The translations under genes and the position numbers were made by a program. A stretch of DNA of 49,145 nucleotides, taken from Clostridia bacterium (GTDB taxonomy: Bacteria > Bacillota > Clostridia > Oscillospirales > CAG-382). This document shows positions 1-35,147 of the stretch, in pieces (position 1 is the stretch's first letter; each line of letters opens with the position of its first letter). Location of the stretch: positions 1-49,145 of the forward strand of contig JAFYUY010000027.1 in NCBI GenBank assembly GCA_017549405.1, read 5' to 3'. Below the pieces are notes generated by a model that made no database searches, was not told where the DNA came from, and saw nothing but the letters and a program-made list of their open reading frames with translations.

Positions 1-151
1 ACATTTTTGAATGGTATAACGGAGGTATTTCTAATGAAAAAAAGAATACTAAGATTGATGAATCTACATATAAAAACCTGCTCAACAAATGCGGAACTAT
101 AAGAAGAAAACTTATTGCTTCTGTTACTACTGCAAAAGGAGGAAATATTAA

Positions 152-421
152 ATGAAATTAAGTTTCAGTTTAAAAAATAAAGAGGCAAGTTTTGAAGCAG
201 ATGTGGAAGGACTTGTAGAAAAAAGTATAGAAAACAAAGCGAAAAATCCAGTAAAGAAAACACGCTATCAGCTCAAGCAAGAAGAAGAAAAAAGAAGAAA
301 TGAAGAACTGAAACATAAACAAGAAATGCAGAAAATATATATTTGTTTAGGTATTGTAAGTGTTGTTATTACTATTTGTATAGTTATGGCTATTTTATCT
401 AATGTTTTTGGTTGGGCATAA
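152..421 (+). CDS. hypothetical small protein with C-terminal transmembrane helix
   Basis: 89-aa ORF with SD aaaggagg about 8 nt upstream of the ATG. The N-terminal half is Lys/Glu-rich and the C-terminus is hydrophobic (IYICLGIVSVVITICIVMAILSNVFGW). No family recognised. Confidence 0.45.
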   Translation: MKLSFSLKNKEASFEADVEGLVEKSIENKAKNPVKKTRYQLKQEEEKRRNEELKHKQEMQKIYICLGIVSVVITICIVMAILSNVFGWA

Positions 422-489
422 ATCCATAGTGTAGTTGAATACGAACAAAACATGTGGAATCCGTTGCACTTTTGGTGCAATCGGATTCA

Positions 490-570
490 GCGATATAAAT
501 GCTGTCACATTTGCGATATATACTAAGTATGCGATATATTACTTCGTAGTGCGATATGTCCCTTCGGGAC
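490..570 (+). repeat. tandem array: invariant word GCGATAT x4, each followed by a different short palindromic hairpin
   Basis: Read directly: GCGATAT-aaatgCTGTCAcattt, GCGATAT-atacTAAgtat, GCGATAT-attacTTCgtagt, GCGATAT-gtcccTTCgggac. A 13-bp-stem hairpin at 457-488 (gaatccgttgcac/gtgcaatcggattc) precedes it. Confidence 0.8.
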
Positions 571-620
571 GTGAATTTATCCCACAGGGCAACCGAAAAA
601 AGTGAGGTTATATCAAAATT

Positions 621-1108: not shown

Positions 1109-1192
1109 GCGCCCGTGGCGGAATTGGCAGACGCGCCGGATTTAGGTTCCGGTGTCCTTGACGTGAAGGTTCAAGTCCTTTCGGGCGCACCA
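1109..1192 (+). tRNA. tRNA-Leu (anticodon UAG), class II with long variable arm, encoded CCA
   Basis: Acceptor stem GCGCCCG/CGGGCGC, discriminator A and CCA. Anticodon stem CCGGA/TCCGG with loop TTTAGGT. Long variable arm and T-loop GGTTCAAGTCC. Confidence 0.93.
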
Positions 1193-1236: not shown

Positions 1237-1237
1237 A

Positions 1238-1406
1238 ATGATGTTTGCCTTCGGCAAATGATGTTGGCTTCGCCAATGATGACGGCTTCGCCTAATGATG
1301 TGTAGCTTCGCCACATTTTATGGCAAACATCGCATCATTGCGAGTAAAACGAGCAACATCATATTTGCGGAGCAAATGCATCATATCGCCTGCGGCGATG
1401 CTTCAT
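1238..1406 (+). repeat. composite tandem array: word ATGATG x4 then inverted word CATCAT x3-4, each separated by variable hairpins
   Basis: ATGATG-tttgccTTCggcaa, ATGATG-ttggcTTCgccaa, ATGATG-acggcTTCgcct, ATGATG-tgtagcTTCgccaca. The polarity then flips: CATCAT-..., CATCAT-atttgcGGAgcaaat, CATCAT-atcgccTGCggcgat, CTTCAT. Confidence 0.75.
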
Positions 1407-1530
1407 TTGAAAAGCAACTTTGATAAAAAGTTGGGGCTATTTTATTTGTTGTCCTTTTTATGGGACACATGCCGTGATAAAATTAAGATGTAAAGTAAAT
1501 CATGTCCTGAAAAACGAAAGGAGATTTATC

Positions 1531-1884
1531 ATGGAAACAATGTTTGTAACAATTACGGGAGTTAACCACTACTACGGACTCAAGCCATTTAAAGTGGGTG
1601 GTATTTTGAAACTTGTCAAGGATAAGCACAATGATTTTGACGGTGATGCTATCGAAGTAAAAATGCCATATATCAACACGGTAGGTTTTGTGGCGAACAG
1701 TCCTAACACAACGTTTAAGGGCACTTTCAGTGCAGGTAGAATTTATGACAGCTTTGGTGATTATTGCTATGCAAGAGTTATGTTTATAACGCATTCGTCT
1801 GTGATTGCACTTGTGCTTCCCGAGGAGGTCGGAAGCGTGTGTAACAATATGTTTGATTCTGAAGACGATGTAATACACTTTTAA
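1531..1884 (+). CDS. stand-alone HIRAN domain protein
   Basis: SD aaaggaga precedes the ATG at 1531; the track ORF starting at 1420 is an upstream extension. GVNHYYGLKPFKVGGILKLVKDKHNDFDGDAIEVKM..VGFVA fits the HIRAN pattern. Confidence 0.65.
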   Translation: METMFVTITGVNHYYGLKPFKVGGILKLVKDKHNDFDGDAIEVKMPYINTVGFVANSPNTTFKGTFSAGRIYDSFGDYCYARVMFITHSSVIALVLPEEVGSVCNNMFDSEDDVIHF

Positions 1885-4378: not shown

Positions 4379-4906
4379 ATGGAAAATCAATCCCGCTTGC
4401 CTGCAAGGAAAAATAACCGTCTTAAAGATTATGACTACAGTTCTTGCGGTGCATATTTTATAACTATATGCACAAAAGACAAAAAATGCATATTTTGGAA
4501 AAAAGAGCAGAACGGTTTTGTAGGGGAGGATATTATCCTCCCGCAAAACTGTATAGAATTATCGCCTTATGGAAAAATTGCAGATAATGCGATAAATGCA
4601 ATTCCTCTTCATTATCAAAACATAGAATTATTGCAATATGTCATAATGCCCAATCACATACACCTTATATTATTTATTCCGTATAATAACGGGAAGATGA
4701 TATCTTCCCCTACAATACGAAAATCTGTTTTGACAGCAGTGGGACAGATGAAACGGCATGTTTCAAAGGCAATAGGTCAACCCATTTGGCAAAAATCCTT
4801 TCACGACCATATCATACGCAACGGCAGTGATTATGAAAAAATAGCCAAATACATATATGAAAATCCGATAAAATGGCATTGCGACTGTTTTTATACAGAA
4901 CAATAA
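4379..4906 (+). CDS. IS200/IS605-family Y1 (HUH) transposase-like protein of the REP-associated (RAYT) type
   Basis: RLKDYDYSSCGAYFITICTKD, HUH motif in MPNHIHLIL, and WQKSFHDHIIRNGSDYEKIAKYIYENPIKW. Single gene with no tnpB or IS ends visible. Confidence 0.8.
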   Translation: MENQSRLPARKNNRLKDYDYSSCGAYFITICTKDKKCIFWKKEQNGFVGEDIILPQNCIELSPYGKIADNAINAIPLHYQNIELLQYVIMPNHIHLILFIPYNNGKMISSPTIRKSVLTAVGQMKRHVSKAIGQPIWQKSFHDHIIRNGSDYEKIAKYIYENPIKWHCDCFYTEQ

Positions 4907-11595: not shown

Positions 11596-11626
11596 GTTTA
11601 TGGATGTCCTTTCGCCATAGGTGTGT

Positions 11627-11875
11627 AATTTAGCTGCCGAAGGCAATTTAGCTGCCGAAGGCAATTTAGCTGCACCGAAGGTGCAATTTAGCTGACCGAA
11701 GGTCAATTTAGCTCGCCGCAAGGCGAATTTAGCTCGCCGCAAGGCGAATTTAGCTGACCGAAGGCAATTTAGCTGCCGAAGGCAATTTAGCTGCACCGAA
11801 GGTGCAATTTAGCTGACCGAAGGTCAATTTAGCTGCACCGAAGGTGCAATTTAGCTGACCAAAGGTCAATTTAGC
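11627..11875 (-). repeat. tandem array: invariant word GCTAAAT (plus strand reads ATTTAGC) x13 alternating with 12 short palindromic hairpins
   Basis: Counted by hand. Unit lengths are 18-22 bp. Hairpins come from a few alleles (sense orientation): tgccTTCggca x3, tgaccTTCggtca x2, tgcaccTTCggtgca x3, tcgccTTGCggcga x2, tgaccTTTggtca x1, and one hybrid tgccTTCggtca. Confidence 0.9.
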
Positions 11876-11879
11876 TCTC

Positions 11880-13706
11880 TCATCTGCCGACACAGACCGC
11901 TTTCAGAAGTTCACTTTTTTTGTTTTCTGTTCTTCCGGAAAGGGCATCAATGAGAAGCGCATCAAGGGTATTTCCGATATCCTTTCCGCAAAGCCCCAAA
12001 GCCGCAAGGTCGTTACCTGATATATCGAGCTGTTTTATGCTTTTCGGAATTTCAGGATTTGCGAAAATATCCTCAAAAAGAGCAGATTTTCCGAAAATCT
12101 CAAGATATTTTTCGAAAAATTCCCCGTATTTTGCAATAAGCTCTATTCCCTTTTCTCTTTGGATATCTTCCGCACCCTCAAGGGTATCGAAGATATCCTT
12201 GAATTGCAGAATATCCTTTTGCTCAGCTCCAGAAAGCTTCATTTCGCAAAGCAGTTTTTTAATATCCTCTGCCCTGAAAAAACGAAGAAGATAAAACATC
12301 CGGCAGGTGAAAACGGGGGGAACCGCATCTATGCCGTTTCCCGAAAAATTTCCCACAATTTCCGAAAAAACTTCGGGAAATTCCCTCAAAACACCGAAAA
12401 CACGGGCACAAACAAGGATTTTTCGCAATTCTTCGCTCTTTCTCTCCGCAGAAATGTGGGAAAGTAAGTGAGCGTTTTTTGTTATCGATGCGGCAGTTTC
12501 GGGGGAAATGTCAAACCCCAGACGCACGGCAAAGCGCAGAGCACGGAGTATTCTCAGAGCGTCCTCGTAAAATCTTGTGTCGGGATGCCCCACGCATTTT
12601 ATCACATGGTTTGAGATGTCTGAAAGTCCGTCGAAATTATCGGTAAGGAATATATTTTTGCCGTCAAAGGTAAGCGCCAAGGCATTCACCGTAAAATCAC
12701 GGCGGGAAAGGTCTTCTTTAATATCCTTGACAAACACTACCTCTGACGGATGGCGGTGATCGTTGTATGCCCCCTCGGCACGGTATGGGGTGATTTCCGC
12801 CTCACACTCTCCGTATTTTAAAAGCACAGTACCGCAGCTTCCGCCCACAAGTGTTGCCTGCGCACCGCAAGAATCTGCGGCAGAGATTATTTCATCGCTC
12901 GATGCGTTTGTGGTAATGTCAAAATCATGGGGAGCAATTCCCATAAGATAATCACGCACACAGCCTCCCACAAAATGGGCACTGTACCCGCTCTTTATTA
13001 AAATTTCAAGGATCTTCAGCACATCTTCAGGGAAAAAATCAAAAAATTCCGCATCGGGAAGCACTCCACCTGCGGTATCCTCCGCAAAGGTCTGCTCACA
13101 AAGCTTGCAAAGGTCGGCATATTCCACCCCAAGCATCTCGAATGCCGAAAGCATGGCATTTGCCGTAAGGTCACATGGAAGCTCAAGCTTTTTAAGAATC
13201 TTCTCACGCTTTTCGGCACTGTCATTCTGCCCCGAAAGTCCGAGTGAATAAAGCTGGGCTTTTGTTACGGGCACGGCACTTTTTCCGTCAGGGTCCTCCG
13301 TAAGTCCCGCCCGTGCAAAAACCTCGCGCAGAGTATCGGGACTCATACCCTCAACGCCCAAAAAACCGTCCTTTGAATACTGAGTTTTTCTTTTTTCCTT
13401 TCCTCGTATCTGCGGAATATATATATTTTTCACCTTGCCCGCAGGAAGCATACCTTTAAGCTTTGAGCGGATAAATCCTCCCGCTCTGTCGCTATCGGTA
13501 ATTATCACAAGGCCGCGCGCCTCGCACAACTTGCGGAGCATGGCTTTTTTCTGAGAATTGTTAAAAACGGAAAAACCGTCGGTGGTAAATATCTGCGCAT
13601 CAAGAACCGAGGAAAGCTTTATTTTATCGTATTTTCCCTCGCACAGAACGGCGCAGTTGAGTTTTATTTTTTTCAGATCACTTTCCTCCTTTCTTTGAAT
13701 GTGCAA
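11880..13706 (-). CDS. cca: fusion protein: N-terminal Toprim/DUF4093 (RNase M5-like) domain plus CCA-adding tRNA nucleotidyltransferase
   Basis: N-terminal 200 aa: VLCEGKYDKIKL...LVIITDSDRAGGFIRSKLKG (Toprim E...DxD). From about aa 220: FVGGCVRDYLMGIAPHDFDITT plus RRDFTVNA (PolyA-pol/CCA head). Start uncertain: TTG at 13706, with a GGAGG just inside. Confidence 0.85.
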   Translation of the reverse strand: MHIQRKEESDLKKIKLNCAVLCEGKYDKIKLSSVLDAQIFTTDGFSVFNNSQKKAMLRKLCEARGLVIITDSDRAGGFIRSKLKGMLPAGKVKNIYIPQIRGKEKRKTQYSKDGFLGVEGMSPDTLREVFARAGLTEDPDGKSAVPVTKAQLYSLGLSGQNDSAEKREKILKKLELPCDLTANAMLSAFEMLGVEYADLCKLCEQTFAEDTAGGVLPDAEFFDFFPEDVLKILEILIKSGYSAHFVGGCVRDYLMGIAPHDFDITTNASSDEIISAADSCGAQATLVGGSCGTVLLKYGECEAEITPYRAEGAYNDHRHPSEVVFVKDIKEDLSRRDFTVNALALTFDGKNIFLTDNFDGLSDISNHVIKCVGHPDTRFYEDALRILRALRFAVRLGFDISPETAASITKNAHLLSHISAERKSEELRKILVCARVFGVLREFPEVFSEIVGNFSGNGIDAVPPVFTCRMFYLLRFFRAEDIKKLLCEMKLSGAEQKDILQFKDIFDTLEGAEDIQREKGIELIAKYGEFFEKYLEIFGKSALFEDIFANPEIPKSIKQLDISGNDLAALGLCGKDIGNTLDALLIDALSGRTENKKSELLKAVCVGR

Positions 13707-16397: not shown

Positions 16398-17972
16398 ATG
16401 TCATCGGAAGCGCAGATATGGCCCGAAGTTTTGGGGCTTTTACAAGAAAGAATAGAACGTGAAGTTACATACAACCTGTGGTTCAGCGACCTCATACTCA
16501 AAAAACTGGTGGATGACAAAGCATATCTTCAGACCCCCAGCATTTACAAAAAGAAAATACTTGAATCCCGTTTTATGGATCAGCTAAAGGAAGCTTTTAC
16601 CGATGTTATGGGATTTGAAATAACTCCCTACGTCATAACAGTCGAAAGCCGCCCGTTTGAAGATCAGTATTTTGAACTCATAGAAAAAGAAGCAAAGGAA
16701 CAGCTTATTGCCGAGGAAATTAAAAAAGGCACCTTTGTGGCACCCGATTATTCCATGCCCGAGCCCGAAGAATCGGAACCCGAGCTTATGGAGCCGCAGG
16801 CATTTACGGGTGATTTCAAGCTTTCAAAAAAGAACCTCAATTTCCCAAAAGCCTATAATCCCGAAAGTGGAGAGCTTGAGGATATTTCCCTTATGAGCTA
16901 CCTTGAAGAACTCGGAAACAAAGACGGAATGCTGCTTATGTCGCAATCGGTTCCCGAATACAGACCAAGCTACACCTTCCGCAACTTTGTGGTAGGTGAT
17001 TCCAACAGAATGGCTTATGCCTCCTGTCTTTCCGTTGCCCAGTATCCTGCGGCACAGTGCAACCCGTTATTTCTTTACGGTCCGCCCGGAATAGGAAAGA
17101 CACATCTTCTTTATGCCATAGCTCACCACATAGAAAAAACAAGACCGTCGTTCAACATAGTTTACTGCACGAGCGAGGATTTCACAAACGAGCTGATGTC
17201 GGCAATAACCCATAAGACCACGGCGGATTTCCGTGAGAAATACCGCACGGCAGACATACTTATGATAGACGATATTCAGTTTATCGGCGGAAAAGAAGCA
17301 ACTCAGCTTGAATTTTTCAATACCTTCAATACCCTTTACGAATCAAATAAACAGATAATATTCGCAAGCGACAGACCCCCGAAGGAAATAACGGTGCTTG
17401 AAAAACGCATACGTTCAAGATTTGAATCGGGCGTTATAATAGACATAAAAACTCCCGATCCCGAGCTCCGTGCCGCAATTATCCGCCGCAAAGCCCTTGA
17501 TATGAATGTGGCGATCCCCGTTACCGCCTTAACTTATATGGCAGAGCATGTTACAGAAAACGTGCGTCAGATAGAGGGAATAATAAAGCATCTCAGCGTT
17601 TATTCTTCTCTCAAGAAAGAACCGATCACGGAAGAACTCGTCCGCTCGCTTGTAGGAAACGTTGTAACGGCACCCATTGAAGTAAATCCCGACAACATAA
17701 TAGATTCCGTTGCAAAGTTCACAGATGTCACACGCGAAGAAATAATGGGCTCCCGCCACACAAAAAATGCCACCATGGCGCGTCACATATGCTCATATCT
17801 TTTACGTAATATGACAAGCATGAAGCTGCAGCAGATAGGCAAATTCATGGGCAGGCACCATTCCACCGTTCACGATTCCATACGCTTTATAGAAGATGAG
17901 CGCAAGGAAGACAAGGCTCTTGACGAGCAGATAAGGACCATAATCCGAGATCTTGGCGGAAAGAACGAATGA
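16398..17972 (+). CDS. dnaA: chromosomal replication initiator DnaA
   Basis: Walker A GPPGIGKTHL, IDDIQF, sensor and box VII regions, and C-terminal HTH (KFMGRHHSTVHDSI). At 524 aa it has a long acidic domain II linker. Confidence 0.98.
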   Translation: MSSEAQIWPEVLGLLQERIEREVTYNLWFSDLILKKLVDDKAYLQTPSIYKKKILESRFMDQLKEAFTDVMGFEITPYVITVESRPFEDQYFELIEKEAKEQLIAEEIKKGTFVAPDYSMPEPEESEPELMEPQAFTGDFKLSKKNLNFPKAYNPESGELEDISLMSYLEELGNKDGMLLMSQSVPEYRPSYTFRNFVVGDSNRMAYASCLSVAQYPAAQCNPLFLYGPPGIGKTHLLYAIAHHIEKTRPSFNIVYCTSEDFTNELMSAITHKTTADFREKYRTADILMIDDIQFIGGKEATQLEFFNTFNTLYESNKQIIFASDRPPKEITVLEKRIRSRFESGVIIDIKTPDPELRAAIIRRKALDMNVAIPVTALTYMAEHVTENVRQIEGIIKHLSVYSSLKKEPITEELVRSLVGNVVTAPIEVNPDNIIDSVAKFTDVTREEIMGSRHTKNATMARHICSYLLRNMTSMKLQQIGKFMGRHHSTVHDSIRFIEDERKEDKALDEQIRTIIRDLGGKNE

Positions 17973-18367
17973 AAAAATAAAGAACATGGGAAAAGCTTAG
18001 TATCATAGTGCTTTTAATAACACTTTTCCACAAAACCCACAAGGGTTTCCCTCAAAACCCGAAATTTTCTTTGTGTGGGTGTTTATGGAAAAAACATCGG
18101 TTTTCCACAATTATTTTCCAAACTTTTTCGGAAAATAAAAAAGGCAAAAAGCCCTGTATACGTGGAAAAAAGGGGGGTTATTATGAGTTTCCCGCAAAAC
18201 CCGCAATAACTACTACTATATACTACTGACCTTTATATATTTATACACTATTATCTGCGGATATTTCCGAAAGAAATTTTCGGAATTTCCCGAAAGAAAA
18301 ATATCCCTTTTCACACTCATAGATCATAGACCACAAAAGCGCAGAAATTCTGAAAGGAAATACCAAA
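17973..18367. other. oriC: DnaA-box cluster, DnaA-trio-like repeats and AT-rich unwinding element in the dnaA-dnaN spacer
   Basis: TTTTCCACA at 18024-18032 and 18101-18109. Related boxes at 18084-18092 (rc TTTTCCATA), 18114-18122 (TTTTCCAAA) and 18161-18169 (rc TTTTCCACG). CTA x3 at 18210-18218 (bottom strand TAGTAGTAG) next to a GC cluster. AT-rich stretch at 18205-18255. Confidence 0.75.
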
Positions 18368-19498
18368 ATGAAATTTACGGCTGAAAAGAAATCACTTGAA
18401 AGATCCATTACCCCGGTCTCCCTTGGCGTTGCTCCCAAGAACACAGATCCTCTCCTCGAGGGCATATATATCGAAGCAAAAGACGGAATTATCACCATGT
18501 GTTCTTACGACCGCGAAAAGGGTATCAGAACTACCCTTGAAGCAGATGTGGTACGTGAGGGAAAGATAGTGGTCGATGCACAGAAGACCTCCGCCATAAT
18601 TCATTCACTTCCCGACGGACCCGTAACCGTTGAAGCCGACGAAAACCTTATTCTGCGTATTATCACAGACGAAGCCGATTTCCAGATATCCGGCAAGGAT
18701 GCCACAAACTATCCCGGACTTCCCGATGTTCACGGCGACCTTGACTACACTCTGCAGCAGAATAAATTGCGCGCCATGATAAACAAGACTCTTTTTGCGG
18801 TATCGCAGGATGATTCAAAACCCATATACACAGGCTCGCTCTTTGAAATAAAGGGTAATTCCATGAGAATAACCGCCCTTGACGGTTTCAGAGTTTCCAT
18901 GCGATGTGACGAAGGTCTTACCGAAAGAGATGACCTTGATCTTCGCTTTATAATGCCGGGCAAAGCTCAGAACGACCTTCTGCGCTTAACCTCCGACAGT
19001 GAAAGACCTATTTCCGTTAACATGGCAAGAAAGCATATCATATTTACTTTCGATAATATCTACTTCATAACCCGACTTCTTGACGGTGAATTCCTTGATT
19101 ACAAAAAGAAGATACCCCCTCAGCGTGAAGTTTCCGCAAGAATGAACACCGCAAGATTTATAGACAGTATAGAGCGTGCCGCACTCATTATCGACGAGCG
19201 CATAAAAAGCTCCATCAAGCTCAATTTTGACGGAGGCGTTCTCAATATCAGCGTTGCGACCATGCTTGGAAAATTCAAGGACGAATTTACCTATGAAGAC
19301 CCGCAGAACGGCATTCTTGAAATAGGCTTTAATCACAAAATACTTCTTGATGCCCTGCGTGCGGTAAACGAAGAATATATAAATGTTACTCTTTCGCACA
19401 ATCTCAGTCCCATGATAATCACTCCCGATGAAAAGTCCGAGGGCGATCCCGAAAGATTCCTTTACATGATACTTCCCGTAAGACTTGAAAATTCATAA
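18368..19498 (+). CDS. dnaN: DNA polymerase III beta sliding clamp
   Basis: 376 aa in the canonical position after dnaA. MKFTAEKKSL...IITMCSYD...; three-domain length. Confidence 0.97.
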   Translation: MKFTAEKKSLERSITPVSLGVAPKNTDPLLEGIYIEAKDGIITMCSYDREKGIRTTLEADVVREGKIVVDAQKTSAIIHSLPDGPVTVEADENLILRIITDEADFQISGKDATNYPGLPDVHGDLDYTLQQNKLRAMINKTLFAVSQDDSKPIYTGSLFEIKGNSMRITALDGFRVSMRCDEGLTERDDLDLRFIMPGKAQNDLLRLTSDSERPISVNMARKHIIFTFDNIYFITRLLDGEFLDYKKKIPPQREVSARMNTARFIDSIERAALIIDERIKSSIKLNFDGGVLNISVATMLGKFKDEFTYEDPQNGILEIGFNHKILLDALRAVNEEYINVTLSHNLSPMIITPDEKSEGDPERFLYMILPVRLENS

Positions 19499-20689
19499 AT
19501 GAAAGTTCTTAAGCTCAAAGCTTCACGATACAGAAATATAGAAAATGCCGAAATAGAATTTTCCGACGGAGTAAATCTGCTCTACGGAAAAAACGGTGCG
19601 GGCAAAACAAATGCTCTTGAGGCGGTCTACCTTTTTGCCATATGTAAAAGCTTCCGCACGGGAAAAGAAAGCGATTTCATAATGCACGGCAGTGAAAATG
19701 CCGAAATTTCCCTTTCCTTTACCGATAGCTTTTGCAAAAATTCCGAAAACAAGAACATGGGTCTTGAATTTTTGAAAAACGGCAAAAAGAAAATGCTTTA
19801 TGAGGGCGTGGAGATCCCGAAGATTTCAGAATTTGTGGGAAGATTCCGTGCCGTATTCTTCACTCCCGACCATTTATCGCTGATAAAAGGCGCACCCGAT
19901 GAGCGCAGACGTTTTGCCGATATGGCTCTTTCTCAGATAAAGCCGTCGTATATAAAGTGCCTTAATGAATACTACCGTATCCTTTCTCAGCGGAACAGTC
20001 TTTTAAAAAAGGCAAAGCTTGGCGAAAAGACGGATAAAGACCTTCTTTATGTATACTCCGAGGCTCTTTCGCAAAGTGCCGCGGTAATAACAAAGCAAAG
20101 AGCATATTTTTCCGAATATCTTGAAAAAGAGGCGGAAAGATTTTACAGAGAGATCTCGGGCGGCAACGAAAATCTCTTTATACGATATATCTCCTCGGAA
20201 AAAGACGAACCGAAGGATACCGAAAAAACAAAAAATAAATATCTTTCGCTGTATACCTCAAATATCGAATCCGAAATAAGATACGGTGCCACAAAGTACG
20301 GACCGCACAAGGATGACCTTATGTTTTATATAGCAAAAAAGCGCGGAGATGCGGAAATATTAAAGGTCTGCGGCAATGAAGATGAAGAAAACGAAAATTC
20401 AAATCTTTACGCAGAATTTGCCGCAAGAACATTCGGCTCCCAGGGGCAGCAGCGAAGTGCCGTTTTATCGTTAAAGCTTGCCGAAGGTGAAATCATCCGC
20501 TCCCTTTGCGGTGAATATCCGGTATATCTTTTCGATGATGTGTTGTCGGAGCTTGATAATCAAAGAAAATATCAGCTTATGTCGCTCTTTTCCGATAAGC
20601 AGGTGGTAATTACCTGCTGCGACGAAAATGCCTTTGATAAAAGCCTTACTCAAAAAAGGATTTTTGTTGATAACGGCAGCTACTCATAA
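19499..20689 (+). CDS. recF: DNA replication and repair protein RecF
   Basis: Walker A GKNGAGKTNALEA, signature FGSQGQQRS, Walker B YLFDDVLSELD. The ATG directly abuts the dnaN stop. Confidence 0.95.
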   Translation: MKVLKLKASRYRNIENAEIEFSDGVNLLYGKNGAGKTNALEAVYLFAICKSFRTGKESDFIMHGSENAEISLSFTDSFCKNSENKNMGLEFLKNGKKKMLYEGVEIPKISEFVGRFRAVFFTPDHLSLIKGAPDERRRFADMALSQIKPSYIKCLNEYYRILSQRNSLLKKAKLGEKTDKDLLYVYSEALSQSAAVITKQRAYFSEYLEKEAERFYREISGGNENLFIRYISSEKDEPKDTEKTKNKYLSLYTSNIESEIRYGATKYGPHKDDLMFYIAKKRGDAEILKVCGNEDEENENSNLYAEFAARTFGSQGQQRSAVLSLKLAEGEIIRSLCGEYPVYLFDDVLSELDNQRKYQLMSLFSDKQVVITCCDENAFDKSLTQKRIFVDNGSYS

Positions 20690-21151: not shown

Positions 21152-23269
<2,118 letters not shown>

Positions 23270-23282
23270 GCGGATTCGGGAA

Positions 23283-23464
23283 GCTAATTGCACCTGCGGT
23301 GCGGCTAAATTGACCTTCGGTCAGCTAAATTGACCTTTGGTCAGCTAAATTGCACCTTCGGTGCAGCTAAATTAACCTTCGGTCAGCTAAATTTGCCTTC
23401 GGCAAGCTAAATTGACCTTTGGTCAGCTAAATTGACCTTCGGCAGATAAATGCACTTTGTGCAT
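23283..23464 (+). repeat. tandem array: invariant word GCTAAAT (7 exact plus 2 degenerate copies) alternating with 9 short palindromic hairpins
   Basis: GCTAAT-tgcaccTGCggtgcg, then GCTAAAT followed by tgaccTTCggtca, tgaccTTTggtca, tgcaccTTCggtgca, taaccTTCggtca, ttgccTTCggcaa, tgaccTTTggtca, tgaccTTCggca, then ATAAAT-gcacTTTgtgc. Uses the same word and hairpin alleles as the array at 11627-11875, on the opposite strand. Confidence 0.9.
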
Positions 23465-23528
23465 TCTGGCGAAAAAAGGTATTAAATTAAAAATCAATTA
23501 TGTTTTTTCATAAAGGAGAACAAAAAAC

Positions 23529-26141
23529 ATGAAATGGACAGGATTAAACGAACTGCGTGAAAGCTATCTTTCGTTTTTTGAAAGCAAGGGACATTTAAGA
23601 CTTCCCAGCTTTTCGCTCATTCCTCAGAACGACAACTCTCTTCTTCTCATAAACTCGGGCATGGCTCCTATGAAGCCCTATTTCCAGGGCACAAAAGAAC
23701 CGCCCAGAAGAAGAGTTACCACTTGTCAGAAGTGCATCAGAACCCCCGACCTTGACAATGTCGGAAAAACTGCACGCCACGGCACATATTTTGAAATGCT
23801 TGGCAACTTCTCTTTCGGAGATTACTTCAAGACAGAGGCAATAGAATGGTCCTGGGAATTCCTCACAAAGACCCTTGAAATACCCGAAGAGCTTCTCTGG
23901 CCGTCGGTTTACGAAAACGATGACGAAGCATATGCACTCTGGCAGAAATATGTTCCAAAAGAGCGCATAGTAAAGCTCGGCAAGGCAGATAACTTCTGGG
24001 AGCACGGCAGCGGTCCCTGCGGTCCCTGCTCCGAAATATACTTTGACCGTGGCGAAAAATACGGCTGCGGCAGCCCCGATTGCCGCCCCGGCTGTGAGTG
24101 CGACAGATACATGGAGATATGGAACAACGTATTCTCCCAGTTTGATAATGACGGTAAGGGCAACTATACAGAGCTCGTTCAGAAAAACATAGATACCGGT
24201 ATGGGTCTTGAACGTCTTGCCTGCGTAATGCAGGGGGTTGACAACCTTTTTGAGGTCGATACCGTAAGAAAGATACTTGATACCGTTTGCGGTCTTTGCG
24301 GCAAAAAATACGGTGATAATTACGATAACGATGTTTCCATCCGCATAATCACCGACCACATCCGTTCCACCACATTTATGATATGCGACGGTGTTATGCC
24401 GTCCAACGAAGGCAGAGGCTACGTTCTCCGCAGAATTCTCCGCCGTGCCGCACGTCACGGAAGACTCCTTGGAATTTCGGGAGCATTCCTTGCCGATCTT
24501 TCCTCACTTGTTATTTCTCAGAACGAGGGCGCATATCCCGAGCTTTCAACAAAGAAGGACTATATCCGCAAGGTTATATCCATCGAAGAAGAACGCTTTG
24601 ATGCAACGATAGATACAGGTCTTTCTCTGCTTTCAAAGATGATAGAAGACCTTACCTCAGCCGGAAAAAATGTGATTTCCGGCGAAGATGCCTTCAAGCT
24701 TTACGATACATACGGATTCCCCATCGACCTCACAAAGGAAATTATCGGTGAAAAGGGCTTTACCGTTGATGAAGAAAGATTCAAAGAGCTTATGACCGAG
24801 CAGAAAGTTCGTGCGCGTGAGAATCGCAAGGCGGGCGGCGGCTGGTCCAAGGATGGCGTTGACCTCTTTGAAAACTGCGAGCAGACAAACTTTACGGGAT
24901 ATGCCGAAAACACTACCTGCGATGCAAAGATAATTGCCATTGCAGCGGGTGAGATGCTTGTGGACGAGGTTTCCGACGGTGAGTGTGTTATCCTTCTCGA
25001 TAAAACTCCCTTCTATGGTGAAGGCGGCGGTCAGGTGGGCGACACGGGAACATTTAAAGCAGACGGCTTTACCGCAGAAGTAGTTGACACCAAAAAGGCA
25101 AACGGAAGATATATGCACATTTGTAATGTAACCTCCGGCTGTGCAAAGGTCGGCATGACAGTATGTGCTGCGGTAGATTCCGCAAAGCGTGAGGCAATAC
25201 GCCGTAACCACTCGGCAGTTCATCTTCTCCAGGCGGCACTCAGAAAGATACTCGGAGATCATGTTGAACAGGCAGGCTCATATGTTGATGCAGAGCGTTT
25301 CCGCTTTGACTTCTCTCACTTTGAACCCATGACAAAGGAACAGATAGAAAAGACCGAAGCCCTTGTTAACGCAAAGATCCTTGAGGGACTTGATGTTACC
25401 ACCCTTGAAACAGATATTGAAACTGCAAAGGGCATGGGTGCCATGGCTCTCTTCGGAGAAAAATACGGAAATACCGTTCGTGTTGTTAAAATGGGCGATT
25501 TCTCCACCGAGCTTTGCGGCGGTATCCACATGACAAATACTGCAAAGGCAGGTCTTTGCAAGATACTTTACGAAAGCTCCGTTGCGGCGGGTGTTCGCCG
25601 TATTGAGGGCATCACGGGTGAAAATGTACTCAACTATATTTACGAAAATCTCTCCGTAATGCATGAAACCGCAAAGAACCTCAAGGCTCAGAACATTTCC
25701 GATATTGCCGAAAAGGCAGCGTCTGTTTCGGGCGAGGTAAAGGAATTAAAGAGTAAGATAGAAGAGCTTTCCGCAGAAATTGCAAAGTCAAAGACAAAAG
25801 ATCTTTCCGAAAAGGCAGAAAAGATCGGAGAATTTAACTTTGTTTCCGCACGCCTTGACGGTATGAGCGGTGATGAACTCCGTGCGGCAGGCGATATCCT
25901 TAAGGATTCCGATGAAAACATCGTTGCAATACTCGGTGCCGTTACCGACGGAAAAGTAACACTTCTTGCGGTGTGCGGTAAAAATGCCGTTAAGAACGGT
26001 GCCCACGCAGGAAAGATAGTTAAAGCAGCAGCGGCAGTTGTTGGCGGAGGCGGTGGCGGAAGACCCGACAGCGCTCAGGCGGGCGGTAAGGATCCTTCAA
26101 AGCTTGACGAAGCACTCTCTGCTGCAAAAGCGGCTCTTTAA
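23529..26141 (+). CDS. alaS: alanine--tRNA ligase
   Basis: 870 aa. FFESKGH, HGTYFEMLGNFSFGDYFK, editing-domain HSAVHLL and CGGIH, and C-terminal DHHA1-like GGGGGGRPDSAQAGG. Confidence 0.98.
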   Translation: MKWTGLNELRESYLSFFESKGHLRLPSFSLIPQNDNSLLLINSGMAPMKPYFQGTKEPPRRRVTTCQKCIRTPDLDNVGKTARHGTYFEMLGNFSFGDYFKTEAIEWSWEFLTKTLEIPEELLWPSVYENDDEAYALWQKYVPKERIVKLGKADNFWEHGSGPCGPCSEIYFDRGEKYGCGSPDCRPGCECDRYMEIWNNVFSQFDNDGKGNYTELVQKNIDTGMGLERLACVMQGVDNLFEVDTVRKILDTVCGLCGKKYGDNYDNDVSIRIITDHIRSTTFMICDGVMPSNEGRGYVLRRILRRAARHGRLLGISGAFLADLSSLVISQNEGAYPELSTKKDYIRKVISIEEERFDATIDTGLSLLSKMIEDLTSAGKNVISGEDAFKLYDTYGFPIDLTKEIIGEKGFTVDEERFKELMTEQKVRARENRKAGGGWSKDGVDLFENCEQTNFTGYAENTTCDAKIIAIAAGEMLVDEVSDGECVILLDKTPFYGEGGGQVGDTGTFKADGFTAEVVDTKKANGRYMHICNVTSGCAKVGMTVCAAVDSAKREAIRRNHSAVHLLQAALRKILGDHVEQAGSYVDAERFRFDFSHFEPMTKEQIEKTEALVNAKILEGLDVTTLETDIETAKGMGAMALFGEKYGNTVRVVKMGDFSTELCGGIHMTNTAKAGLCKILYESSVAAGVRRIEGITGENVLNYIYENLSVMHETAKNLKAQNISDIAEKAASVSGEVKELKSKIEELSAEIAKSKTKDLSEKAEKIGEFNFVSARLDGMSGDELRAAGDILKDSDENIVAILGAVTDGKVTLLAVCGKNAVKNGAHAGKIVKAAAAVVGGGGGGRPDSAQAGGKDPSKLDEALSAAKAAL

Positions 26142-35102: not shown

Positions 35103-35147
35103 AATTAATCAGTTAATTTTCAATTAATCAGTTAATTTTCAATTAAC
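35103..35147. repeat. 19-bp tandem duplication (2.4 copies) spanning the stop codon of the SLH protein gene
   Basis: aattaatcagttaattttc at 35103-35121 and 35122-35140, plus a partial copy from 35141. Confidence 0.85.

What the first reader, a model, noticed from the sequence alone, without database searches (positions are those of the whole stretch)
23283..23464. Second GCTAAAT/hairpin array in mirror orientation on the other side of oriC
The gyrB-alaS spacer carries the same word and the same hairpin alleles (tgaccTTCggtca, tgaccTTTggtca, tgcaccTTCggtgca) as the array at 11627-11875, but on the opposite DNA strand. The two arrays lie about 6.3 kb left and about 5.0 kb right of the putative unwinding site (about 18.2 kb). 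In both arms the GCTAAAT/TTC-loop polarity is therefore on the sense strand of the flanking genes, which is also the lagging-strand template. Two explanations fit. One is an RNA-level intercistronic element. The other is an ssDNA hairpin element spread by an HUH/Y1 enzyme, which is known to act on the lagging-strand template; a RAYT-like gene lies at 4379-4906. The arrays at 490-570 and 1238-1300 have TTC loops on the sense strand of plus-strand genes in the left arm. This favours transcript polarity over replication polarity.
Basis: partly seen in the sequence, partly recalled or inferred. Interest (0 to 1): 0.75.

Follow-up and report, generated by a model that had tools for sequence, protein, structure and literature searches.

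The report
Dispersed word-plus-hairpin repeat, not origin-specific
The two mirrored repeat arrays beside the replication origin are real, but they are lineage-specific copies of a repeat family scattered through gut Clostridia, related to the orphan Gut-1 RNA motif and repeatedly found next to small four-helix-bundle protein genes, and they show no sign of being part of the origin.

Summary
Window 23283-23464 holds nine units of GCTAAAT plus a short hairpin on the + strand. The array at 11623-11876 holds the same word and hairpin alleles on the - strand. Each array fills an intercistronic spacer in the sense orientation.

Four relatives (GyrB 83-91% identical) keep gyrB-alaS adjacent, and none carries the array.

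The family is widespread in Oscillospirales gut MAGs and sits in many unrelated contexts. 13 of 96 arrays lie 33-46 nt after a tRNA or tmRNA gene. Stems covary strongly. Rfam places the arrays just below threshold for Gut-1, an orphan motif built on the word GUGAAAU.

In other species the usual form is a composite: four sense units followed by four antisense units. Full-length copies continue into a PF05635 four-helix-bundle gene and a small membrane ORF. The window's own genome has the same layout with another word (CGATAT). No RAYT homologue lies near any array.

Best reading: these are amplified solo copies of a selfish cassette's repeat, transcribed within operons as RNA hairpin strings. 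The conserved word is the likely recognition element; its binding partner is inferred, not shown.

The parts
23283..23464 (+). Array B. Nine units of word plus hairpin: seven exact GCTAAAT words, a first unit GCTAAT and a last unit GATAAAT. Stems are 4-6 bp with TTC, TTT or TGC loops. The array starts 13 nt after the last base of the gyrB stop codon (23269) and ends 64 nt before the alaS ATG.
   Evidence: sub-threshold Gut-1 hits of 35-40 bits; no promoter-like site and no sense-strand terminator-like site
11623..11876 (-). Array A. Thirteen GCTAAAT words with hairpins and a 121-nt higher-order duplication. It starts 4 nt after the stop codon of the upstream gene; the last word ends 23 nt before the downstream ATG.
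488..582 (+). Sister array with the word GCGATAT(A): four units of word plus hairpin. It lies downstream of the four-helix-bundle gene and the small ORF.
   Evidence: Gut-1 44.3 bits, E 4.6e-7
1237..1407 (+). Sister composite with the word AATGATG. Four sense units (1237-1313) are followed by a central segment, GGCAAACATC, that is complementary to the word end plus the 5' half of hairpin 1. Antisense CATCAT(T) units follow (1327-1407). The composite begins directly after the tRNA-Leu terminator.
1..137 (+). 3' end of a four-helix-bundle protein gene (PF05635). In same-strain contigs the full 117-aa gene is preceded by a composite of 4 sense plus 4 antisense units with the word TCGATAT.
152..421 (+). 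89-aa ORF with a hydrophobic C-terminal segment. Its start overlaps the stop of the four-helix-bundle gene. It is the second gene of the cassette; analogous small membrane ORFs follow the gene in other species.
1109..1192 (+). tRNA-Leu gene. Its terminator is directly followed by the AATGATG composite.
21176..23269 (+). gyrB, the upstream neighbour of array B.
23529..26141 (+). alaS, the downstream neighbour of array B.
11880..13706 (-). RNase M5 (Toprim/DUF4093) fused to a CCA-adding enzyme; the upstream neighbour of array A.
4379..4906 (+). RAYT-like Y1 HUH protein, with HIH and YIYENP motifs read from the translation. It is context only and not linked to the arrays by any test.

Best explanation
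Arrays A and B are solo, tandemly amplified copies of a dispersed repeat made of a 7-nt word plus a short hairpin. The repeat belongs to a family of small cassettes in Oscillospirales.

A full-length cassette runs in this order:
- a promoter-like extended -10 box,
- a 5' hairpin,
- four sense units (GCTAAAT plus hairpin),
- four antisense units,
- a PF05635 four-helix-bundle gene,
- a small membrane ORF.
Gene-less composites and one-orientation arrays are derivatives of this layout.

The copy in the gyrB-alaS spacer arose in this lineage only and then grew by unit duplication. It is most likely read through as part of the gyrB-alaS transcript. There it would fold into a string of 4-6-bp hairpins separated by single-stranded GCUAAAU.

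At this locus it probably acts, at most, as a 3'-exonuclease barrier or processing site, and as extra binding sites for whatever recognises the word. My candidate for that factor is the cognate four-helix-bundle protein. An alternative is pairing with the AUUUAGC words in the cassette's own 5' UTR.

The mirror symmetry about oriC follows from the arrays being sense to genes that themselves point away from the origin.

Shown: sequence, stem covariation, distribution, absence in relatives, gene association.
Inferred: transcription, RNA as the active form, word recognition by the protein, and how copies spread.
For: 1. Lineage-specific. Four relatives with GyrB 91, 89, 87 and 83% identical keep gyrB-alaS adjacent. 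Their spacers are 125, 66, 135 and 1062 nt with no GCTAAAT array. Two same-strain contigs carry an identical spacer.

2. Dispersed family. About 70 of the 119 genome-scan loci carry hairpin-type arrays (78 before removing non-Clostridia hits; 71 after). These are Clostridia/Oscillospiraceae/Ruminococcus gut MAGs, in unrelated gene contexts.

3. Hairpins are selected. In 38-39 distinct four-unit arrays the stem positions are 95-100% canonical, against 41-61% for the variable positions in shuffles. Each position shows 3-4 pair types.

4. Architecture matches Rfam Gut-1 (three hairpins separated by GUGAAAU) at 35-44 bits, against a threshold of 50, for three different words.

5. Orientation is biased to the sense of neighbouring genes. 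Solo arrays: 26:8 for the upstream gene. Composites: 36:11 for the downstream gene. Eight solo arrays start within 30 nt of the end of a co-directional ORF.

6. Antisense-part hairpins carry 44 C.T/T.C and 8 A.C mismatches and no G.T when read in the GCTAAAT sense. On the gene-sense strand these become G.A and G.U, which suggests one functional strand.

7. Gene association. A PF05635/TIGR02436 gene starts about 25 nt after the composite in 7 of 71 loci, in different contexts. It is the only recurrent neighbour. Full modules are seen in L263 and L273. Their right-end motif, GGCATCTAAATTGTTCAC, recurs directly after gene-less composites.

8. The window's own genome has a TCGATAT composite, the four-helix gene, the small ORF and a GCGATAT array, in that order.

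9. All 8 four-helix-bundle genes sampled independently from PLSDB are flanked by tandem 7-8-nt words or short repeats with the reverse complement on the other side.

10. There are no promoter-like sites and no sense-strand terminator-like sites at the window arrays.
Against: - No expression data exist, so RNA rather than single-stranded DNA is not established. Sense-array stems show no G.T versus A.C asymmetry (11 vs 14).
- Orientation is not absolute. One 186-kb contig carries sense and antisense arrays among genes of the same direction.
- No four-helix-bundle gene with the GCTAAAT word is seen in the window. Its presence in this genome is inferred from a relative with GyrB 91% identical (L039 and L122 are from the same assembly).
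- The loci were chosen by the word pattern. The 7/71 association rate is therefore not a genome-wide rate, and some of these loci could share ancestry.
- No insertion boundaries or target duplications could be defined, and no enzyme that would move the repeat is identified.
- ORF calls used for the orientation counts are crude (longest ORFs).
Confidence: 0.55

Rival explanations
1. REP-like single-stranded-DNA hairpin element. It would be copied or moved by the RAYT-like Y1 HUH enzyme (4379-4906) acting on the lagging-strand template.
For: - The ORF matches REP_Tyr_transpos at E 6e-19 and carries HIH and YIYENP motifs.
- 'Conserved word 5' of a hairpin' resembles GTAG plus REP (my own knowledge of REP/RAYT).
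- In both arms the GCTAAAT strand is the lagging-strand template.
- The inverted composites recall REPIN doublets.
Against: - The ORF scores below both curated cut-offs (68 vs 80 bits; 22 vs 23 bits).
- Its 13-nt and 68-nt flanking spacers hold no repeats.
- tblastn finds no homologue in any of the 119 word-selected genome-scan loci.
- At least three word families coexist in 49 kb with one such gene.
- Arrays of both orientations occur in one contig whose genes mostly point one way.
- Left-arm arrays of sister families lie on the + strand.
- Stems differ between neighbouring units, unlike REP copies within one genome.
Confidence: 0.1
2. Purpose-built RNA element of the host. This could be an intercistronic stabiliser or processing site, or a protein-sponge or sRNA of the kind proposed for Gut-1. 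It would be selected at this locus for gyrB/alaS expression.
For: - Sense orientation, filling the spacer from the stop codon to the RBS.
- Strong stem covariation.
- Weinberg 2010 rated Gut-1 as certainly RNA and probably not cis-regulatory.
- Some composites elsewhere have extended -10-like boxes upstream.
Against: - The array is absent from the same spacer in four relatives, so it is not needed for gyrB/alaS.
- The same units sit in dozens of unrelated contexts.
- Recent higher-order duplications point to expansion rather than a tuned length.
- No promoter-like site and no sense-strand terminator-like site that would define an independent sRNA here.
Confidence: 0.2
3. Double-stranded DNA binding-site arrays that organise the origin domain. 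These would be centromere-like, iteron-like, or ParB/SMC/DnaA-related sites placed symmetrically around oriC.
For: - Two arrays lie about 6.3 kb and 5.1 kb either side of the dnaA-dnaN spacer in mirror orientation.
- The 20-nt period is about two helical turns.
Against: - Not conserved in relatives; the left flank of dnaA is not even syntenic.
- The family mostly lies at non-origin loci such as tRNA and tmRNA 3' ends.
- The variable part keeps base-pairing while its sequence changes freely. That is expected for folded single strands, not for duplex recognition.
- The word does not resemble the DnaA-box consensus searched, or parS (my own knowledge of its consensus).
Confidence: 0.03

Closest known systems
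Gut-1 RNA motif (Rfam RF01706; Weinberg et al. 2010, PMC2864571)
   Same: Tandem short hairpins, often with CUUCGG-type tops, separated by a conserved 7-nt A-rich word. Found in gut bacteria. The covariance model aligns to both window arrays and to the CGATAT-word array end to end. An inverted pair of Gut-1-like hits occurs in L092.
   Different: The word is GCUAAAU, not GUGAAAU. This breaks the outermost modelled A:U pair. Scores are 31-44 bits, below the 50-bit threshold. The window has 8-13 units, not 3, embedded between cistrons. Gut-1 was described from 43 human-gut metagenome examples, with no organism, context or function.
REP/BIME elements and their RAYT transposases (Enterobacteria, Pseudomonas; my own knowledge)
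   Same: Short extragenic palindromes with a conserved 5' word. High copy number. Located after stop codons and between cistrons. Inverted doublets occur. A RAYT-like gene is present in the window.
   Different: There is no GTAG word. Units are tandem and head-to-tail with differing stems. The RAYT-like gene is not flanked by the repeat and is absent from the 119 word-selected genome-scan loci. The only associated gene is a four-helix-bundle gene.
PF05635 '23S rRNA intervening sequence protein' elements (Avd-like four-helix bundles)
   Same: A small four-helix-bundle ORF bracketed by inverted repeats and inserted co-directionally into transcribed units. All 8 PLSDB examples have inverted tandem words or short repeats on their flanks. 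PF05635 resembles DGR Avd (PMC10053308). The closest PDB entries have five chains.
   Different: In Oscillospirales the words are interleaved with hairpins, and both arrays lie upstream of the gene. The window arrays have no gene and no inverted partner. No reverse transcriptase is adjacent.
Tandem heptamer arrays: cyanobacterial STRR (my own knowledge) and the paired tandem 7-8-mers of Geobacter metallireducens (Aklujkar 2009, PMC2700814)
   Same: Dispersed intergenic arrays of 3-5 or more 7-8-nt words, often as pairs on opposite strands about 100 nt apart and between cistrons. AATCCCC (the STRR1 repeat in another register) flanks a Planktothrix four-helix-bundle gene.
   Different: Those arrays have no hairpin between words. 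The Geobacter sites were guessed to bind IHF/HU. No paper in the held library linked them to PF05635 genes.
CsrB/RsmZ-type sponge RNAs (a 'works-like' comparison only; my own knowledge)
   Same: Many repeats of a short recognition motif presented on or between small hairpins.
   Different: There is no GGA motif and no CsrA link. The binding partner here is hypothetical.

Membership tests
Gut-1 RNA (RF01706) | Score at or above Rfam's gathering threshold (50 bits) | tested here: not met
   34.9-40 bits for array B, 30.8-36.5 bits for array A, 44.3 bits for the CGATAT array. No hit at the gathering threshold.
Gut-1 RNA (RF01706) | Three or more short hairpins separated by a conserved GUGAAAU linker | tested here: inconclusive
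   The architecture is met end to end (model positions 1-77). The linker is GCUAAAU, which gives an A.C mismatch at the outermost pair.
REP/BIME with RAYT | Conserved GTAG-type tetranucleotide 5' of an imperfect palindrome whose sequence is shared by the copies in a genome | tested here: not met
   The word is GCTAAAT. Neighbouring stems differ (TGACC, TGCACC, TGCC, TCGCC).
REP/BIME with RAYT | RAYT gene flanked by its REPs, or co-occurring with them | tested here: not met
   The 13-nt and 68-nt spacers around 4379-4906 hold no repeats. There is no tblastn hit in the 119 word-selected genome-scan loci. Genome-wide co-occurrence could not be tested.
CRISPR array | Identical repeats of 23-50 nt alternating with unique spacers of similar length | tested here: not met
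   The period is 18-22 nt. The constant part is 7-8 nt. The variable part is a self-complementary hairpin that recurs between arrays.
Intrinsic terminator | GC-rich hairpin followed by a U tract on the sense strand | tested here: not met
   No sense-strand terminator-like site in 22900-23700. The one hit is on the antisense strand and has no T run.
Origin-domain DNA sites (DnaA boxes, parS, iterons) | Sequence-conserved duplex sites kept at the origin in related genomes | tested here: not met
   Absent from the four relatives examined. DnaA-box-like words lie in the dnaA-dnaN spacer, not in the arrays.
Repeat arrays of PF05635 four-helix-bundle cassettes (grouping proposed here) | Tandem 7-nt word arrays, with the reverse complement as partner, adjacent to a PF05635 gene | tested here: inconclusive
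   Met for GCTAAAT arrays in L039, L045, L049, L063, L078, L084, L263 and L273, and for the CGATAT word in the window's own genome. Arrays A and B themselves have no partner and no adjacent gene.
Repeat arrays of PF05635 four-helix-bundle cassettes (grouping proposed here) | The protein recognises its own word | not testable with these tools
   Only co-location is available. Different paralogues sit with different words (GCTAAAT, CGATAT, and the heptamers near the L088 gene).

The most novel reading that the evidence does not exclude
Word arrays may be the cis-sites of an unrecognised, phylum-spanning class of selfish cassettes. These arrays are pure heptamers in Cyanobacteria, Bacteroidota and Spirochaetes, and word plus hairpin in Oscillospirales. 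The cassettes' only constant gene is a pentameric PF05635 (Avd-like) four-helix-bundle protein, and each paralogue would be matched to its own 7-nt word.

If so, one mechanism would explain the orphan Gut-1 motif, the cyanobacterial STRR heptamers and the paired 'global regulator sites' of Geobacter. Solo arrays such as the two beside this oriC would be satellites that bind the cognate protein, or pair with the cassette's antisense words, in RNA.
Probability: 0.3. Interest if true: 0.85.

Novelty: new variant of a known kind. Interest (0 to 1): 0.6.

Why it matters
For origin biology the result is negative. The symmetry is a by-product of gene direction, so these arrays should not be read as origin-domain sites.

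The family itself matters for three reasons.
- It gives Gut-1, an RNA motif orphaned since 2010, a set of host organisms (Oscillospirales MAGs), genomic contexts, sister families with other words, and a candidate protein partner.
- It shows a repeat class that prefers the 3' ends of tRNA, tmRNA and protein genes in abundant gut and rumen bacteria. The many very short contigs that carry the associated gene suggest it also tends to break metagenome assemblies.
- If the link to four-helix-bundle genes holds, a large 'function unknown' protein family (over 7900 clusters for one subtype alone) would gain a testable nucleic-acid target. Long-known heptamer repeats would gain an explanation.

Tried and rejected
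- Rfam at gathering threshold found only tRNA-Leu in the window. Fifteen composite-bearing loci gave no relevant family.
- CRISPR, terminator and promoter readings were rejected on anatomy and pattern scans.
- The DnaA-box search shows boxes in the dnaA-dnaN spacer and none in the arrays.
No genome-wide map was therefore possible.
- Conserved context with window genes: tblastn of 13 window proteins against the loci found nothing relevant.
- RAYT association: none.
- Phage origin: 110 viral contigs match the word pattern, but only 2 hold genuine hairpin arrays. blastn of array B against phage and plasmid collections found nothing; the low-complexity filter may contribute.
- PADLOC defence models gave no hit for the four-helix-bundle proteins, the small ORF or the RAYT-like protein.
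- The metagenome scan for window-like arrays returned only 14 loci, mostly composites.
- Strain variation of array A could not be checked. The 226-aa ORF is not on record, and the contigs that carry the upstream gene end before the array.
- The G.T versus A.C strand test on sense arrays was uninformative (11 vs 14).
- Word-to-word pairing in composites is predicted by folding. It cannot be tested by covariation because the words do not vary.
- Literature searches found no paper linking PF05635 genes with tandem word arrays.
Full report
**1. What is there**

Window 23283-23464 is a head-to-tail array on the + strand.
- It has seven exact GCTAAAT words, spaced 20-22 nt.
- Each word is followed by a 4-6-bp hairpin: TGACC-TTC-GGTCA, TGACC-TTT-GGTCA, TGCACC-TTC-GGTGCA, TTGCC-TTC-GGCAA and similar.
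- A degenerate first unit (GCTAAT) and last unit (GATAAAT) complete the array.

The array at 11623-11876 carries thirteen words on the - strand.
- It uses the same alleles plus TCGCC-TTGC-GGCGA and TGCC-TTC-GGCA.
- It contains a 121-nt higher-order duplication at 90% identity.

Twenty of the 22 GCTAAAT words in the window lie in these two arrays. Shuffles give 11 +/- 3.3 words, and none of 100 reaches 22.

- gyrB lies at 21176-23269 and alaS at 23529-26141.
- dnaA, dnaN and recF lie at 16398-20689.
- Array A lies between an RNase M5/CCA-enzyme fusion gene and a 226-aa ORF, both on the - strand.

Each array fills its spacer from a few bases after the stop codon to just before the next ribosome-binding site, in the sense orientation. 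The scans find no promoter-like site and no sense-strand terminator-like site.

The GC-skew minimum and DnaA-box-like words in the dnaA-dnaN spacer make an origin near 18 kb plausible.

**2. Is it tied to the origin? No**

Homologues of the window's GyrB were found and their contigs fetched.
- Relatives at 91, 89, 87 and 83% GyrB identity all keep dnaA-dnaN-recF-gyrB-alaS.
- Their gyrB-alaS spacers are 125, 66, 135 and 1062 nt. None holds a GCTAAAT array.
- The region left of dnaA is not even syntenic in these relatives.
- Two contigs from the same strain have an identical 259-nt spacer.

The closest relative (assembly GCA_045532495.1; L122) does carry the repeat elsewhere in its genome (L039). 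The family is thus present in that genome, but this copy is not.

**3. The family**

- About 70 of these are Clostridia/Oscillospiraceae/Ruminococcus gut and rumen MAGs with genuine hairpin-type arrays. The count is 78 before filtering out non-Clostridia hits and 71 after.
- The remaining loci are unrelated tandem repeats.
- Flanking genes differ from locus to locus.

The usual form is not a long array but a compact composite of about 170 nt. It consists of:
- four sense units;
- a short central segment (GCT..GGCGAATTTA);
- three or four antisense units (ATTTAGC plus hairpin).

Each hairpin position has its own character, and stems change by compensatory substitutions.
- In 38-39 distinct arrays, stem positions are 95-100% canonical.
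- The variable positions are 41-61% canonical in shuffles.
- Each position shows 3-4 pair types.

The hairpins are therefore under selection as folded single strands.

**4. Relation to Rfam**

With permissive thresholds, both window arrays align end to end to RF01706, Gut-1. That motif is three hairpins separated by GUGAAAU.
- Scores are 31-40 bits against a gathering score of 50.
- The difference is the word. GCUAAAU turns the outermost modelled A:U pair into A.C.

Gut-1 was described from 43 human-gut metagenome sequences.
- It was rated certainly RNA and probably not cis-regulatory.
- No organism or function was assigned.

Two further arrays in the window also hit Gut-1: word GCGATAT at 488-582 (44.3 bits) and word AATGATG at 1237-1313 (25 bits). 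L092 has an inverted pair of Gut-1-like hits next to a GCTAAAT composite. The model is therefore detecting a shared architecture that exists with at least four different words.

**5. Where the elements sit, and which way they face**

- 13 of 96 sense arrays with enough upstream sequence lie 33-46 nt after the 3' end of a tRNA (Leu, Val, Met, Cys, Asn, Pro) or tmRNA gene on the same strand. That distance is one terminator hairpin.
- The window's AATGATG composite sits the same way, after tRNA-Leu.
- Eight solo arrays, including array A, begin within 30 nt of the end of a co-directional ORF.

Orientation is biased but not absolute.
- Solo arrays are co-directional with the upstream gene 26:8.
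- Composites, taking the short-hairpin half as sense, are co-directional 31:14 with the upstream gene and 36:11 with the downstream gene.
- These counts rest on crude ORF calls.

One 186-kb contig has three sense arrays in one 8-kb tile. A second tile, with genes pointing mostly the same way, has two antisense arrays.

A 3:1 bias cannot by itself separate transcript polarity from replication polarity, because genes in these bacteria mostly follow replication. Inside the window, however, the left arm holds + strand arrays among + genes and a - strand array among - genes. That pattern favours gene direction.

Antisense-half hairpins carry 44 C.T/T.C and 8 A.C mismatches and no G.T when read in their own GCTAAAT sense. 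On the other strand these are G.A and G.U. This points to one functional strand for the whole composite, the strand that is usually sense to the genes. Sense-half stems give no such signal (G.T 11, A.C 14).

**6. The gene link**

All-against-all clustering of ORFs in the 71 loci gave only one recurrent neighbour. It is a 117-122-aa protein beginning MAESIMLDKAK, and it starts about 25 nt after the composite in 7 loci.
- It matches PF05635 (23S rRNA intervening sequence protein) at E 2e-28.
- It matches TIGR02436 (four helix bundle protein) at E 1e-33.
- Its closest solved structure is 2RLD (E 2e-31, five chains).
- PF05635 is reported to resemble the DGR accessory protein Avd (PMC10053308).

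The contexts of these seven differ: after tRNA-Val, tRNA-Met and tmRNA, upstream of an S10 leader, and others.

Full copies fetched through protein homologues (L263, L273) read in this order:
- an extended -10-like TGATAGAAT;
- an AT-rich hairpin;
- four sense units, the central segment, and four antisense units;
- the four-helix-bundle gene;
- an overlapping small ORF with hydrophobic segments;
- the motif CGGCATCTAAATTGTTCAC.

That last motif also follows directly after gene-less composites in L038, L059, L062, L081 and L082. The gene-less form therefore looks like a deletion derivative.

The MAESIM-type protein has over 7900 clusters at E < 1e-20. About 120 of those listed are 91-99% identical to the query, and most sit on contigs under 2 kb. 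That is what a multi-copy or mobile sequence would give.

**7. The window's own genome shows the same layout with another word**

The window starts inside a four-helix-bundle gene (tblastn to 54-137). Same-strain contigs extend to the left.
- Upstream of that gene are four TCGATAT-plus-hairpin units.
- Next comes a central GAGATTTATATC.
- Four ATATCGA units follow, and then the ATG 15 nt later.

Downstream come the 89-aa ORF with a hydrophobic tail (152-421) and the GCGATAT array (488-582).

In all three word families the central segment is complementary to the end of the word plus the 5' half of the first hairpin. Within the GCTAAAT family this complementarity is 4.56 of 5 positions. Shuffles give 4.23, with a maximum of 4.46.

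**8. A wider pattern**

As an independent sample I took eight four-helix-bundle genes from PLSDB by tblastn. All eight have tandem 7-8-nt words or short repeats on one flank and the reverse complement on the other.
- Bernardetia: (TTAGTGA)x15 on one side, TCACTAA on the other.
- Euhalothece: ACCAGTG-type words, with (CACTGGT)x13 opposite.
- Nostoc: (TTCAAAA)x4, with (TTTTGAA)x4 opposite.
- Treponema: about 35 GGAAAG-type units, with CTCTCCG-type units opposite.
- Planktothrix: GATTTAC and AATCCCC words. The latter is the classical cyanobacterial STRR1 heptamer in another register (my own knowledge).
- Chondrinema, Monoglobus and Chlorohelix show weaker versions.

These genes sit between cistrons: hsdS-hsdR, RND adaptor-permease, and helicase-methylase.

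Among the word-selected loci, a Paludibacteraceae four-helix-bundle gene is preceded by pure (GCTAAAT/GCTGAAT)n. An Ignavibacteria-like gene is preceded by (GACGAGT)x4.

Aklujkar et al. 2009 listed 24 + 21 + 8 pairs of tandem 7-8-mers on opposite strands in Geobacter metallireducens. Some lie between cistrons about 100 nt apart. The authors guessed they were IHF/HU sites (PMC2700814).

I found no paper in the held library that links such arrays to PF05635 genes. That is not proof that none exists.

**9. Mechanism I commit to, and its limits**

Arrays A and B are solo, amplified derivatives of the sense half of this cassette family.
- They share its word.
- They share its unit alleles. TGACCTTCGGTCA is the commonest fourth unit. 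TCGCC-type and TGCC-type units are typical of the first and third positions.

They entered these spacers in this lineage and grew by duplication of units and blocks.

With no promoter-like or sense-strand terminator-like sites and a sense orientation, they are most likely transcribed within the operon mRNAs. There they would fold as hairpin strings with single-stranded GCUAAAU between the hairpins.

The invariant word, set against freely varying stems, argues that the word is what is recognised. The co-location of different words with different four-helix-bundle paralogues makes that protein the leading candidate. Pairing with the AUUUAGC words of the cassette's leader is an alternative. That pairing is predicted by folding only and cannot be tested by covariation.

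Still inferred: transcription, RNA versus ssDNA, the binding partner, any effect on gyrB/alaS, and the way copies spread. No transposase is evident.

**10. Rivals**

- *HUH/RAYT route.* The ORF at 4379-4906 looks like an intact Y1 enzyme. However, it is below the curated cut-offs, is not flanked by repeats, and is absent from the 119 genome-scan loci. Trans action from a distant single gene cannot be excluded.
- *Origin-domain DNA-site idea.* It fails on conservation, on distribution, and on the covarying stems.
- *Host-selected regulator of gyrB/alaS.* This is unlikely given the array's absence from relatives.
- *Phage or plasmid origin.* Not supported.

**11. Verdict**

The origin significance is coincidental. 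The arrays are a new word variant, in an unusually long solo form, of a poorly known kind: Gut-1-like hairpin arrays.

The more interesting lead is the recurrent link between tandem word arrays and PF05635 genes. That link deserves a genome-wide test and a binding experiment.

Noticed in passing
window 488-582 (+): A four-unit array with the same architecture but the word GCGATAT(A). It lies downstream of the four-helix-bundle gene and the small ORF. It gives the best Gut-1 score in the window (44.3 bits).
   Followed up: yes
window 1237-1407 (+): A composite with the word AATGATG: four sense units, a central segment complementary to the word end plus the first half of hairpin 1, then antisense CATCAT units. 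It starts directly after the tRNA-Leu terminator. L079 also has an ATGATG array beside a GCTAAAT array.
   Followed up: partly
window 1-421 (+); L252 650-1462; L251 2453-3270: A two-gene cassette: a PF05635 four-helix-bundle gene (117 aa) whose stop overlaps an 89-aa ORF with a hydrophobic C-terminal segment. The same pairing, with a small membrane ORF of 66-123 aa, recurs in L263-L279. It could be an addiction-like pair; nothing was tested.
   Followed up: partly
composites in L012-L116; window 1314-1336; L252 736-750: The central segment between the sense and antisense halves is complementary to the word end plus the 5' half of the first hairpin, in three word families. It could close a multi-helix junction over hairpins 2-4, or compete with hairpin 1 as a possible switch. 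Covariation within the GCTAAAT family is weak (4.56/5 vs 4.23 in shuffles).
   Followed up: partly
L255-L262 (PLSDB), L102, L107: Four-helix-bundle genes in Cyanobacteria, Bacteroidota, Spirochaetes, Chloroflexota and Clostridia are flanked by tandem 7-8-nt words, with the reverse complement on the other side. They are inserted between cistrons of operons such as hsdS-hsdR and RND adaptor-permease.
   Followed up: partly
window 11880-13706 (-): A single 608-aa ORF fuses RNase M5 (Toprim + DUF4093) to a CCA-adding enzyme. These are two RNA 3'/5'-end maturation activities in one protein, directly upstream of array A.
   Followed up: no
window 4379-4906 (+): A RAYT-like Y1 HUH protein with HIH and YIYENP motifs. 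Residues 1-79 do not match the REP_Tyr_transpos model. It is tightly packed between unrelated genes with no flanking repeats, and may be a domesticated copy.
   Followed up: partly
L125 6136-7299, 8900-10000, 12167-13228, 15842-17432: In a relative with GyrB 83% identical, the origin-region spacers are each about 1-1.6 kb. The gyrB-alaS spacer, the only one read, is filled with other hairpin-rich repeats, and ATTTCAC/GTGAAAT words recur across the locus. This is a different, much larger intergenic repeat load in the same gene order.
   Followed up: no
L059 about 1270-1311 and 1500-1545 (reverse-strand coordinates as): A direct repeat of about 35 nt (cagtctttatatgcggtgca[t/c]agcacc) flanks one gene-less composite on both sides. 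It could be a duplicated target or a duplication junction. It is the only boundary clue seen.
   Followed up: no
window 35103-35146: A perfect 19-nt direct repeat (AATTAATCAGTTAATTTTC, 2.3 copies) just upstream of the start of the 1088-aa ORF on the - strand.
   Followed up: no
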